NCBI GenBank assembly: GCA_964493715.1
Contig: CAZBPC010000104.1
Span: 1 to 10,637 of the forward strand
DNA length: 10,637 nucleotides
Direction: 5' to 3'
Source: an uncultured archaeon
GTDB taxonomy: Archaea; Asgardarchaeota; Lokiarchaeia; Sigyniarchaeales; SOKP01
In this document: one piece after another, positions 468 through 2,337 of the stretch
How positions within the stretch are numbered: the stretch's first letter is position 1
How the letters are laid out: every line of letters starts with the position of its first letter
Program-made: the position numbers and the translations under genes
Notes under the pieces: model-generated
Databases searched by the model: none
What the model saw: the letters and a program-made list of their open reading frames with translations, nothing else
What the model was told of the DNA's origin: nothing

Positions 468-1406
468 TTATTTTTTAGATCTGGCATATATTTCTTGTGA
501 GAGATACAATAATATTTCTGGAATAGTACAATCGTTATTTTTAGAGATGTCAAATCGCTTCGCTCCCATTTCTTCAACAATGGAACTTATATCTTCATTT
601 GGAATAACTTCTGAATCTCCAATCACCATAAGAGCTACAGGCAATTTAATAAACTTGTTTTCACGTTTTCTTGTATTGAATACCAAATTTGTTTTTTCTC
701 TTATCTCCGTGATATAAGTTTTAATTTTTTCAAAAGAATTCCGATTTTCTTTATTTAAAACTAAGATTATTCCAGCAGATCCTAGAAAATATTGATTTCT
801 AATAGATTCAAATCTTTTATTATCGGATACTCTCCAAATTTGGAGTAATACAGAAGATTTATCAAATATTTCAAGTACATGCGTATAAAAATCAACGCCA
901 ATGATCTCAATGGAAGATTCACTTGTTTTAGTTAATAAAGAGAGCATTTTGTCAGAATATTCTTCGTCTAGTCCTAGCAAGATGATTTTAAATCGTTGAT
1001 CGTAATCCTTTCCCCATTTTCCAAAACTATCTAGAAACCGTTCATATCTTTGCACTTTCTTACGCAATTCATGCAATTGACTACGTTCTGTGCTCGTCAG
1101 TGTAATGCCTAATTCGCGTTTTATAATTGCTTGAACTTGCCCTTGACTTATCGTTTTTTCAAATTGCTGGAAAATGTGAGAAGAAAGATATGAGATGATC
1201 CAATTGATATCATACTGTTGACTGATTTGAAAAACAATTTCTTCCAATGATAATAGGGATTTTTGATATTGTTCTTTCTCAGGAAAGACATCTAATGTAG
1301 ATTCTAGCAAATCATCCACTAAATTAACTTTAGAGTATTTAATTTGTTTTAGAAATTTTAAAAGCTTATCACATTGTACATCTGTGAGCAAATTTTTTTC
1401 TAACAT
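468..1406 (-). CDS. Fusion of an N-terminal helical/winged-HTH-like region with a C-terminal degenerate Rab-like small GTPase domain (pseudo-GTPase)
   Basis: Residues ~135-312 carry FKIILLG, IGVDF, LLQIW, RFESIR, YFLGS, IILV and SFEKI in Rab order, but GxxxxGK[ST], DxxG and NKxD are absent. Residues 69-101 (WIISYLSSHIFQQFEKTISQGQVQAIIKRELGI) resemble a winged HTH. An SD-like GAGGT lies at 1419-1415. Confidence 0.8.
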   Translation of the reverse strand: MLEKNLLTDVQCDKLLKFLKQIKYSKVNLVDDLLESTLDVFPEKEQYQKSLLSLEEIVFQISQQYDINWIISYLSSHIFQQFEKTISQGQVQAIIKRELGITLTSTERSQLHELRKKVQRYERFLDSFGKWGKDYDQRFKIILLGLDEEYSDKMLSLLTKTSESSIEIIGVDFYTHVLEIFDKSSVLLQIWRVSDNKRFESIRNQYFLGSAGIILVLNKENRNSFEKIKTYITEIREKTNLVFNTRKRENKFIKLPVALMVIGDSEVIPNEDISSIVEEMGAKRFDISKNNDCTIPEILLYLSQEIYARSKK

Positions 1407-1978: not shown

Positions 1979-2065
1979 AAGTCTCAAATGACACTAAAAT
2001 CTTAATTTTTCATTTACTTATTTCAAGAAATAAACATAAATATATGAAAAGTGGGAACCGAGGGA

Positions 2066-2096
2066 ATTTCCTCGGCGTTTGGCATTCAAACGCCGT
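2066..2096 (-). other. tRNA intron 3 (31 nt, T-loop, about position 59/60)
   Basis: It contains a perfect 9-bp stem CGGCGTTTG/CAAACGCCG and a relaxed BHB (TTCA/GGAA, bulges AAA and ATT). Removal restores the T-loop TTCAAAT. Confidence 0.8.
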
Positions 2097-2118
2097 TTTG
2101 AACCCCCGACCTACAGGT

Positions 2119-2147
2119 ATCCGCGCGCAATAAGTTGCTTATAGGAT
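2119..2147 (-). other. tRNA intron 2 (29 nt, canonical 37/38)
   Basis: ATCCTATAAGCAACTTATTGCGCGCGGAT lies between G37 and A38. The 3' bulge ATA is closed by a pair between C32 and intron G(-3). Confidence 0.85.
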
Positions 2148-2162
2148 CTGGAGCCTGTTGCG

Positions 2163-2192
2163 TTCGGCTATTAGGTTTAACGTTCACTCTAT
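2163..2192 (-). other. tRNA intron 1 (30 nt, D-arm, about position 22/23)
   Basis: Bulge-helix-bulge-like geometry: 4-bp helix CGGT/GCCG followed by 3-nt segments ATA and AAC; cutting after the second bulge nucleotide gives 22/23. The junction could shift by 1-2 nt. Confidence 0.75.
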
Positions 2193-2337
2193 ATACCGGG
2201 CTACGCTAGGTCCCCATGTGGGAATAAGTTAATAAAATATTTCATGAAATTTATATTTTAAGATTAAAGTAGTTTCCCTTCATTAATCGACCAATTCTAA
2301 AGTAAAATAAATATGATTTGAAAGATTAGTAATTACA

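What the first reader, a model, noticed from the sequence alone, without database searches (positions are those of the whole stretch)
2052..2215. tRNA-Trp(CCA) interrupted by three introns, one in each arm
Seen: a 164-nt gene in which introns of 30, 29 and 31 nt (about 22/23, 37/38 and 59/60) must all be removed to give a 74-nt cloverleaf, so 90 of 164 nt are intron. Established: multi-intron and non-canonical-position tRNAs are rare and best known from Thermoproteales (Pyrobaculum, Thermofilum), where broad-specificity splicing endonucleases process them. Inference: this apparent Asgard lineage has a relaxed-specificity EndA, standard annotation may miss or mis-call this tRNA, and the T-loop intron could block integration of elements targeting the tRNA 3' half.
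Basis: partly seen in the sequence, partly recalled or inferred. Interest (0 to 1): 0.85.

Follow-up and report, generated by a model that had tools for sequence, protein, structure and literature searches.

The report
Three-intron tRNA-Trp gene, Asgard archaeon
This is a real tryptophan tRNA gene broken by three short introns, a striking layout that has already been described for Asgard archaea and that varies from zero to three introns among this organism's relatives.

Summary
Confirmed. The gene lies on the minus strand (window 2215..2052, 164 nt). Removing 30, 29 and 31 nt leaves a 74-nt cloverleaf that ARAGORN calls tRNA-Trp(CCA). ARAGORN and Rfam find nothing on the unspliced DNA. The strongest proof is comparative. 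Sister genomes carry the same gene with one insertion precisely missing: G001/G006/G022 lack the T-loop insert, G023 lacks the D-arm insert, G014 lacks the anticodon-loop insert. Of 72 family orthologs, 71 become tRNA-Trp after splicing, and 10 of 67 distinct genes carry three inserts. No second trnW was found in the 100%-complete genome. Boundaries fit bulge-helix-bulge motifs: canonical for intron 1, relaxed (3 of 4 central pairs) for introns 2 and 3. The genome encodes a catalytic EndA alpha subunit with the Crenarchaea-specific-loop lysine, a beta-like paralog lacking the catalytic His, and RtcB. No RNA data exist, so splicing itself is inferred. Multi-intron Asgard tRNAs and their (alpha-beta)2 EndA are already published. 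This is a new member of a known kind; interest is modest.

The parts
2052..2215 (-). whole tRNA-Trp(CCA) gene, 164 nt, from G1 (2215) to discriminator A73 (2052); no encoded CCA
   Evidence: re-found blind by the genome scans
2193..2215 (-). exon 1 (gene index 1-23): acceptor 5' strand, U8 A9, D-stem 5' strand, D loop AGCCCGGUA, U22
   Evidence: BLAST of this exon against the genome hits only itself
2163..2192 (-). intron 1, 30 nt, D arm, Sprinzl 22/23 (alternative register 2164-2193 = 21/22)
   Evidence: Best BHB register has central helix 4/4, h' 2 bp and h 1 bp. It is absent from G023 and G021, and G023 reads GGTATCGC as that register predicts. G023's spliced product is 100% identical to this one.
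2148..2162 (-). exon 2 (index 54-68): D-stem 3' strand, A26, anticodon-stem 5' strand, loop CUCCAG (anticodon CCA, G37)
   Evidence: only a self hit in the genome
2119..2147 (-). intron 2, 29 nt, canonical position 37/38
   Evidence: Relaxed BHB: anticodon stem as outer helix (5 bp), central helix 3/4 with C34 unpaired, no inner helix. It is absent in G014 and 11 other genus-g1 genomes, which read GGCTCCAGACTTGT.
2097..2118 (-). exon 3 (index 98-119): A38, anticodon-stem 3' strand, variable loop AGGUC, T-stem 5' strand, T loop UUCAAA
2066..2096 (-). intron 3, 31 nt, T loop 59/60, with a 9-bp internal hairpin (index 121-129/135-143)
   Evidence: It is precisely absent in G001, G022 and G006, which are otherwise 97-98% identical. 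Relaxed BHB. The hairpin covaries across 32 orthologs.
2052..2065 (-). exon 4 (index 151-164): U60, T-stem 3' strand, acceptor 3' strand, A73
   Evidence: only a self hit
2249..2255 (-). TATAAAT, likely archaeal TATA box 34-40 nt upstream of G1, preceded by an A-run
   Evidence: Read from the sequence. TATAAATTT stands upstream of the gene in 10 of 12 ortholog loci printed. Its role as a promoter is inferred.
2046..2051 (-). CUUUUC directly after A73, likely oligo-U termination signal
   Evidence: Read from the sequence. T-runs follow the gene in most of the orthologs printed. The function is inferred.

Best explanation
This is the genome's working, and apparently only, tRNA-Trp(CCA) gene. It is transcribed from the minus strand as a precursor of about 170-180 nt. 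Three short introns are cut out by the archaeal splicing endonuclease EndA: a two-subunit alpha/beta enzyme whose alpha subunit carries the Crenarchaea-specific loop that widens substrate range. EndA cuts at bulge-helix-bulge (BHB) or relaxed BHB motifs formed between exon and intron. The four exons are joined by RtcB, the ends are trimmed and CCA is added, giving a normal 74-nt tRNA. Shown here: gene structure, exact insertion boundaries, conservation of the spliced product, BHB-like geometry, and presence of the enzymes. Inferred: transcription, the cuts themselves, their order, and the ligation. The three-intron state is one point in a family-wide polymorphism in which each site is independently occupied or empty.
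For: (1) In-silico splicing gives ARAGORN tRNA-Trp(cca), 74 nt, 62% G+C against 31% for the genome.
(2) Natural alleles lack each insertion precisely. G001/G022/G006 lack the 31 nt, G023 and G021 lack the 30 nt, and G014 lacks the 29 nt. Intron-free orthologs (L173, L185, L151) score 57.9-60.1 bits on Rfam tRNA and are called tRNA-Trp by ARAGORN.
(3) Of 72 family orthologs, 71 give tRNA-Trp after splicing; the miss is cut by a contig end. In 34 distinct 74-nt products, 708 of 714 stem cells pair, with two-sided changes at 4:70, 5:69, 7:67, 11:25, 12:24 and 52:64.
(4) BHB classes across orthologs: 22/23 site 12 of 19 canonical (shuffled-intron null 1%); 59/60 region 16 of 32 canonical (null 10%); 37/38 site 53 of 54 relaxed, 51 of them at the exact site (single shifted sites 4%). 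For this gene, intron 1 is canonical and introns 2 and 3 are relaxed. The T-loop intron hairpin shows compensatory changes at 8 of its 8 pairs.
(5) EndA alpha (207 aa) matches A. pernix 3P1Z_B at 1e-36 and keeps Tyr, His, Lys and the KPR lysine aligned to K44. The second paralog (205 aa) has Ser in place of the catalytic His (K44 and the CSL per PMC5829648). RtcB is present.
(6) No other trnW was found. ARAGORN -i finds 27 tRNAs, none Trp. A relaxed scan for any CCA-anticodon cloverleaf puts this locus first of 102,973 parses (39 against 33 for the next). Exons 1, 2 and 4 hit only themselves.
Against: There is no RNA evidence. None of the 24 listed sequencing runs is on record as RNA, so no junction, intermediate or circular intron has been seen.
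Introns 2 and 3 meet only the relaxed BHB class. That class arises by chance at about half or more of boundaries once a +/-3 window is allowed (the preprint makes the same point). Intron 1's outer helix is 1 bp.
In the unconstrained minimum-free-energy fold, intron 2 prefers an AUCC/GGAU helix that competes with the BHB register. That helix is not conserved in the orthologs.
Orthologs are related, so the counts overstate independent support.
My trnW search covers cloverleaves with at most one insertion each in the D region, anticodon loop and T loop. A split, permuted or stem-interrupted second copy, or one in unassembled DNA, would be missed.
tRNAscan-SE and SPLITS could not be run.
Confidence: 0.9

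Rival explanations
1. The locus is a decaying relic. The cell's working tRNA-Trp is encoded elsewhere: in unassembled DNA, as a split or permuted gene, or with introns inside stems.
For: The genome is a 160-contig draft. My scans cannot see split, permuted or stem-interrupted genes. Several other isotypes also remain unfound, so the scans are not exhaustive.
Against: Completeness is 100%. No paralog of exons 1, 2 or 4 exists. The spliced product is identical to G023's and pairs perfectly apart from a U13:U22 mismatch that G023's intron-free D arm also has. An identical TATA-box stretch lies upstream in the orthologs. An independent contig carries the gene unchanged.
Confidence: 0.04
2. Same gene, but intron 1 is cut one base upstream (Sprinzl 21/22). 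The mature tRNA would then have A22 pairing with U13 rather than a U13:U22 mismatch.
For: This register gives a Watson-Crick 13:22 pair and is also called tRNA-Trp by ARAGORN. With the cloverleaf stems enforced, RNAfold also forms the U13-A pair (index 13-53) of this register.
Against: The BHB central helix is 4/4 only in the 22/23 register; no +/-4 variant that ends the 5' exon at 21/22 scored among the six best. The intron-free allele in G023 reads U at position 22. G014's intron at the same site forms a 4/4 central helix plus a 6-bp inner helix in the same register (sequence, read by eye).
Confidence: 0.25
3. The insertions are not EndA introns. They would be retained expansions, self-splicing introns or mobile-element scars.
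For: Introns 2 and 3 lack a textbook BHB.
Against: At 29-31 nt they are far too short for group I or II introns, and no Rfam family matches the window. Thirty-nucleotide inserts in the D arm and T loop are incompatible with the tRNA L-shape (established knowledge). No copies of any of the three occur elsewhere in the genome. BHB classes are enriched over nulls.
Confidence: 0.02

Closest known systems
[quoted passage not shown] 2024, PMC11291895, passages read; Goswami et al. 2026 preprint, 10.64898/2026.10.13.758758: abstract, Introduction, Results 2.1-2.4 and 2.6 read)
   Same: Multiple short (about 20-30 nt) introns per tRNA gene at D-arm, 37/38 and T-arm positions. D-arm inserts are missed by standard callers. 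BHB enrichment, repeated gain and loss among relatives, and two EndA paralogs are all reported.
   Different: Those papers centre on Atabeyarchaeia and Jordiarchaeia/Freyarchaeia. The main text of the preprint names neither Lokiarchaeia/Promethearchaeia nor tRNA-Trp.
Multi-intron tRNAs of Thermoproteales/Crenarchaeota (Sugahara et al. 2007, 2008; cited in PMC4090602, passages read; the papers themselves not read)
   Same: Up to three BHB introns per gene at non-canonical positions, processed by (alpha-beta)2 EndA with the Crenarchaea-specific loop.
   Different: A different phylum, from hot habitats. There, related introns recur in different genes (transposition). Here, none of the three introns has another copy in the genome.
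Haloferax volcanii tRNA-Trp intron (PMC4090602, passage read)
   Same: The same isotype, with an intron at 37/38.
   Different: Per that passage the Haloferax intron acts as a guide RNA for 2'-O-methylation of C34 and U39. This 29-nt intron is too short for that (box C/D size requirement recalled) and I saw no such boxes by eye.
(alpha-beta)2 EndA of Aeropyrum pernix (PDB 3P1Z, 3AJV)
   Same: The alpha subunit matches at 1e-36 over nearly its full length, with the catalytic triad and the loop lysine K44 conserved.
   Different: The beta-like paralog here is closest to the M. jannaschii homotetramer subunit 1A79 (8.6e-21), not to a crenarchaeal beta chain. Assembly and substrate range are untested.

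Membership tests
Archaeal EndA-spliced (BHB) tRNA intron | Removal of the insert restores a canonical cloverleaf | tested here: met
   ARAGORN calls tRNA-Trp(cca), 74 nt, after removal of all three.
Archaeal EndA-spliced (BHB) tRNA intron | Two 3-nt bulges on opposite strands of a 4-bp helix at the boundaries, with a flanking helix | tested here: inconclusive
   Intron 1: central helix 4/4, inner helix 2 bp, outer 1 bp (canonical by the rule of 4/4 plus one flanking helix of 2 bp or more). Introns 2 and 3: 3/4 central pairs only. Intron 3's 9-bp inner helix is offset by one unpaired A.
Archaeal EndA-spliced (BHB) tRNA intron | Insert absent, to the base, from orthologous genes | tested here: met
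   Each of the three is precisely absent in at least one genus-mate.
Archaeal EndA-spliced (BHB) tRNA intron | Spliced RNA product and excised intron observed | not testable with these tools
   No run on record as RNA holds the window.
tRNA-Trp | Anticodon CCA in a 7-nt loop with U33 and a purine at 37 | tested here: met
   The loop is CUCCAGA. Orthologs without the 37/38 intron read the same loop contiguously.
(alpha-beta)2 EndA with Crenarchaea-specific loop (L1) | Two paralogs, one catalytic (Tyr/His/Lys) and one not | tested here: met
   The C5 protein keeps all three residues. The C58 protein has Ser at the His position.
(alpha-beta)2 EndA with Crenarchaea-specific loop (L1) | Loop insert with the conserved lysine (K44 of A. 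pernix) | tested here: met
   ISKPR aligns with VEKPR of 3P1Z_B, residues 42-46. The role of K44 is per PMC5829648.
(alpha-beta)2 EndA with Crenarchaea-specific loop (L1) | Heterotetramer assembly and cleavage of relaxed motifs | not tested
   No complex prediction or assay was run.
Split or permuted tRNA gene | Exons at separate loci or in permuted order | tested here: not met
   The four exons are colinear on one strand within 164 nt.
Group I / group II intron | Ribozyme core of hundreds of nucleotides | tested here: not met
   The inserts are 29-31 nt, and no Rfam family matches the window.

The most novel reading that the evidence does not exclude
tRNA introns in this salt-marsh Asgard family may be turning over now, one site at a time. 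Genomes 97-98% identical around trnW differ by the exact presence or absence of a single intron. The same three or four BHB-competent sites are also occupied in different lineages by unrelated intron sequences. That would point to a site-directed insertion and removal process, for example reverse splicing by EndA/RtcB followed by copying back into DNA, or conversion by partly spliced intermediates, rather than one ancient burst. This gene family (0 to 3 introns in 67 distinct orthologs) would then be a natural system to catch the mechanism.
Probability: 0.25. Interest if true: 0.6.

Novelty: new member of a known kind. Interest (0 to 1): 0.3.

Why it matters
The gene is a clean, fully bounded example of a tRNA that standard finders miss. 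In this 100%-complete genome, ARAGORN and Rfam find only 26-27 tRNAs and none for ten amino acids. Annotation pipelines would therefore report a false lack of tRNA-Trp. The ortholog series with 0, 1, 2 or 3 introns gives base-exact junctions without RNA data. It also offers a compact test set for intron-aware tRNA callers and for the substrate range of Asgard EndA. It does not change what is known: multi-intron Asgard tRNAs, their BHB bias, their repeated gains and the (alpha-beta)2 EndA are all in print.

Tried and rejected
RNA evidence: the look-up of sequencing runs listed 24 holders, none on record as RNA ('no RNA holder listed'), so expression and junctions could not be examined.

DNA contigs: in X3, X4 and X6 the assembly graph breaks at window 2096-2125, within one or two bases of the 5' edge of intron 3. 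Depth is higher on the exon side. The other branch was not shown, so I do not claim a co-occurring intron-less allele.

Intron mobility: BLAST of the three introns against the genome gave only self hits below E = 0.5, so there is no sign of copying between tRNA genes.

G+C islands: 1205 islands at 54% or more, too many to be useful.

Full tRNA census: my scans add about seven hidden genes but still leave several isotypes unfound, so I give no intron burden for the genome.

Raising the Rfam E-value to 10 gave 34 hits, none at this locus.

A competing AUCC/GGAU helix in intron 2 was rejected as the functional fold because it is not conserved.

Supplementary tables of the preprint and of PMC11291895 were not available and may list this lineage.

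tRNAscan-SE, SPLITS and R2DT are not among the tools. Natural intron-free orthologs were scored instead.

Full report
OBSERVATION. Window 2052-2215 read on the minus strand is a 164-nt stretch. It begins GGGGACC and ends GGTTCCC-A. Its G+C is 52%, in a genome of 31%. ARAGORN finds no tRNA in the window and no Rfam family reaches its gathering score. I use gene index i, where window = 2216 - i. Taking out index 23-52, 69-97 and 120-150 leaves 74 nt. ARAGORN draws these as a complete tRNA-Trp(cca) cloverleaf with U8, A14, G18G19, U33, G37, U54U55C56 and A58. The unspliced 164 nt gives nothing, even with ARAGORN's intron option. Only the strand was left unsaid.

NOT CHANCE, NOT AN ARTEFACT. I wrote an intron-tolerant cloverleaf scan. 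It requires four helices and allows one optional insertion of 10-130 nt in each of the D region, anticodon loop and T loop. I ran it on both strands of the whole genome. The locus was recovered blind at score 55. The top of 326 parses scored 57, 22 parses scored 41 or more, and the bulk lay at 20-34. A stricter first version gave 18 for this locus; among the other loci, scores of 14 or more all looked like tRNA genes and the rest scored 9 or less. A contig from an independent metagenome run (X5, record 10) covers 1800-2365 with no difference and no gap.

COMPARATIVE PROOF. BLAST of the locus against 40 relatives matched 13 of them. In G001, G022 and G006 the match is 97-98% identical but skips exactly the 31 nt of the T-loop insert. 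The T loop there reads TTCAAAT contiguously. G023 and G021 lack the 30-nt D-arm insert. G014 lacks the 29-nt anticodon-loop insert and reads the loop CTCCAGA in one piece. So each of the three inserts has a natural allele that shows the spliced junction.

I widened this with a pattern search over 149 genomes of the order, of which 83 matched, and fetched the flanks. That gave 72 family loci. After removing the inserts, 71 are called tRNA-Trp by ARAGORN; the one miss is cut by a contig end. Among 67 distinct full-length genes, 2 have no insert, 21 have one, 34 have two, 9 have three, and one was parsed as four. That last one is most likely three, with the D insert split by the aligner. Insert sites are 15/16, about 22/23, 37/38 and the 57-60 region, with single cases at 8/9 and 42/43. 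The pattern needed an intact stretch from position 30 to 58, so genes interrupted there, or with a longer anticodon-loop intron, are not counted.

Three intron-free orthologs score 57.9-60.1 bits on Rfam tRNA and are tRNA-Trp by ARAGORN. An ortholog with only the D insert (L011) is missed by both tools. Two other interrupted orthologs (L155, L002) were given to ARAGORN only and were also missed. In 34 distinct 74-nt spliced products, 708 of 714 stem cells pair. Several pairs change on both sides. G023's product is 100% identical to this gene's.

BOUNDARIES AND SPLICING MOTIFS. For intron 1 the only register with a full 4-bp central helix (index 18-21 with 48-51) puts the cuts after index 23 and 53. 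This register leaves U at position 22, which is what the intron-free G023 allele has. The 21/22 register gives A22 and cannot be excluded without RNA.

Intron 2 has the anticodon stem as outer helix. Its central helix has 3 of 4 pairs: C32-G, U33-G, C35-G, with C34 unpaired. It has no inner helix. Across orthologs the base opposite U33 switches between G and A, while the competing AUCC/GGAU helix of the free-energy fold is not kept.

Intron 3 has the T stem as outer helix, a clean 3-nt 3' bulge, 3 of 4 central pairs, and a 9-bp inner hairpin set off by one extra A.

Across orthologs, canonical BHB (4/4 plus a flanking helix) holds as follows:
- 22/23 site: 12 of 19, against 1% with shuffled introns.
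- 15/16 site: 8 of 13, against 4%.
- T-loop site: 16 of 32, against 10%.
- 37/38 site: never canonical. It is relaxed in 53 of 54, 51 of them at the exact site, against 4% for single shifted sites.

The relaxed class is common by chance once a window is allowed, and the orthologs are kin, so these figures are support, not proof. RNAalifold on 32 T arms with the intron predicts the inner hairpin. All 8 of its pairs show sequences changed on both sides (4 to 16 each); over all 12 predicted pairs, 10 show such changes.

ENZYMES. The genome has two tRNA_int_endo loci. The C5 protein (207 aa) matches the A. pernix catalytic subunit 3P1Z_B at 1e-36. It keeps the Tyr, His and Lys of the active site and the KPR lysine that aligns with K44 of the Crenarchaea-specific loop. 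The literature passages say that loop and lysine give broad substrate range, and that Asgard archaea carry the (alpha-beta)2 type with this L1 loop (PMC5829648). The C58 protein (205 aa) is closest to M. jannaschii 1A79 (8.6e-21) and has Ser where the catalytic His should be. That fits a structural beta subunit. RtcB is present. Assembly and activity were not tested.

ONLY COPY. ARAGORN with introns finds 27 tRNAs and Rfam finds 26. Neither finds Trp, nor tRNAs for nine further amino acids. A relaxed scan for any cloverleaf with a CCA anticodon ranks this locus first of 102,973 parses. It scores 39; the next scores 33 and is a 327-nt parse with a poor T loop. The 99.9th percentile is 25. Exons 1, 2 and 4 have no other hit in the genome. 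Exon 3 hits only the shared T-arm sequence of two other tRNAs. Split, permuted or stem-interrupted copies would escape these searches.

CONTEXT. TATAAAT lies 34-40 nt upstream of G1, and TATAAATTT recurs upstream in 10 of 12 orthologs printed. CUUUUC follows the discriminator. CCA is not encoded. Neighbours are a Ras-family GTPase, zinc-ribbon proteins and a PIG-L deacetylase. I saw no integrase among the ten window ORFs scanned against Pfam.

The Asgard label rests on two things. One is an ortholog locus whose record title reads 'Promethearchaeota archaeon' and which has the same three insertion sites. The other is the Ras-family GTPase. I did not place the genome more finely.

WHAT IS KNOWN. 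Valentin-Alvarado et al. 2024 reported that 92-95% of tRNA genes in three Asgard genomes have introns, over half of them several, often at non-canonical sites. A preprint of October 2026 covers 90 Asgard genomes. It reports up to five inserts per gene, D-arm inserts missed by tRNAscan-SE, BHB enrichment, 129 repeated gains and two EndA paralogs in 44 of 60 genomes. Three-intron tRNAs in Crenarchaeota are older still. The integration-blocking idea is Randau and Soll's. Here three near-identical relatives lack the T-loop intron, so it is at least dispensable.

VERDICT. This is a real, probably essential, three-intron tRNA-Trp gene, and it is a new member of a known kind. The local point of interest is the base-exact intron presence/absence series among close relatives. 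Intron 3 of G000 is visibly homologous to that of G023 (22 of 31 by eye). Its absence from the much closer G001/G006/G022 therefore looks like a precise loss, but I built no species tree.

Noticed in passing
G000:C26:18127-18302 (minus strand): A second candidate tRNA gene with three insertions (D region 35 nt, anticodon-loop insert 45 nt, T-loop insert 31 nt), scan score 52. The anticodon reads UAU or UAA depending on where the loop intron is cut. The isotype is not settled.
   Followed up: partly
G000:C11:62432-62538 and G000:C10:54210-54312: ARAGORN calls these Ser(act) and Lys(ttt) with odd anticodon-region introns. A parse with a D-arm insertion of about 30 nt instead gives Glu(ctc) and Ala(ggc). 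So standard tools seem to mis-call isotypes here, not only miss genes.
   Followed up: partly
G000:C2:62179-62281, C23:5062-5200, C1:91233-91361, C83:2267-2387, C84:11436-11583: Further tRNA candidates that ARAGORN did not list (C2:62179-62281 has only a weak partial Rfam hit, 20.2 bits): Val(tac) with a D insert, an initiator-like Met(cat) with two inserts, Gln(ctg) with two, Arg(cct) with two, and His(gtg) or Tyr(gta) with two. Several isotypes (for example Phe, Asp, Asn, Cys) remain unfound.
   Followed up: partly
G000:C2:10967-12309 (minus strand): The RtcB match comes in two pieces in separate open frames (profile 1-47 and 48-426) about 30 nt apart. This could be a frameshift, a sequencing error or a small insertion.
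   Followed up: no
window 2136-2147 (first 12 nt of intron 2) and orthologs: The 5' end of the 37/38 intron (AUCCU, three variable bases, then RGCA) is kept across at least three genera, while its 3' half varies freely. I found no pairing partner that explains this.
   Followed up: partly
window 2096-2125 and 2237-2266: In three of four independent metagenome runs the contigs break at these two places, and the piece between them has higher depth. This suggests co-occurring strains that share exons 1-3 and introns 1-2 but differ from about the 5' edge of intron 3 onward.
   Followed up: partly
G000:C26:15797-15889: ARAGORN calls a tRNA-SeC(tca); Rfam tRNA scores the same place at 31.8 bits.
   Followed up: no
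window 468-1406 (minus strand): A 312-aa protein with a C-terminal Ras/Roc-type small GTPase domain lies about 650 nt downstream of the tRNA's 3' end. This gene type is common in Asgard archaea (recalled).
   Followed up: no
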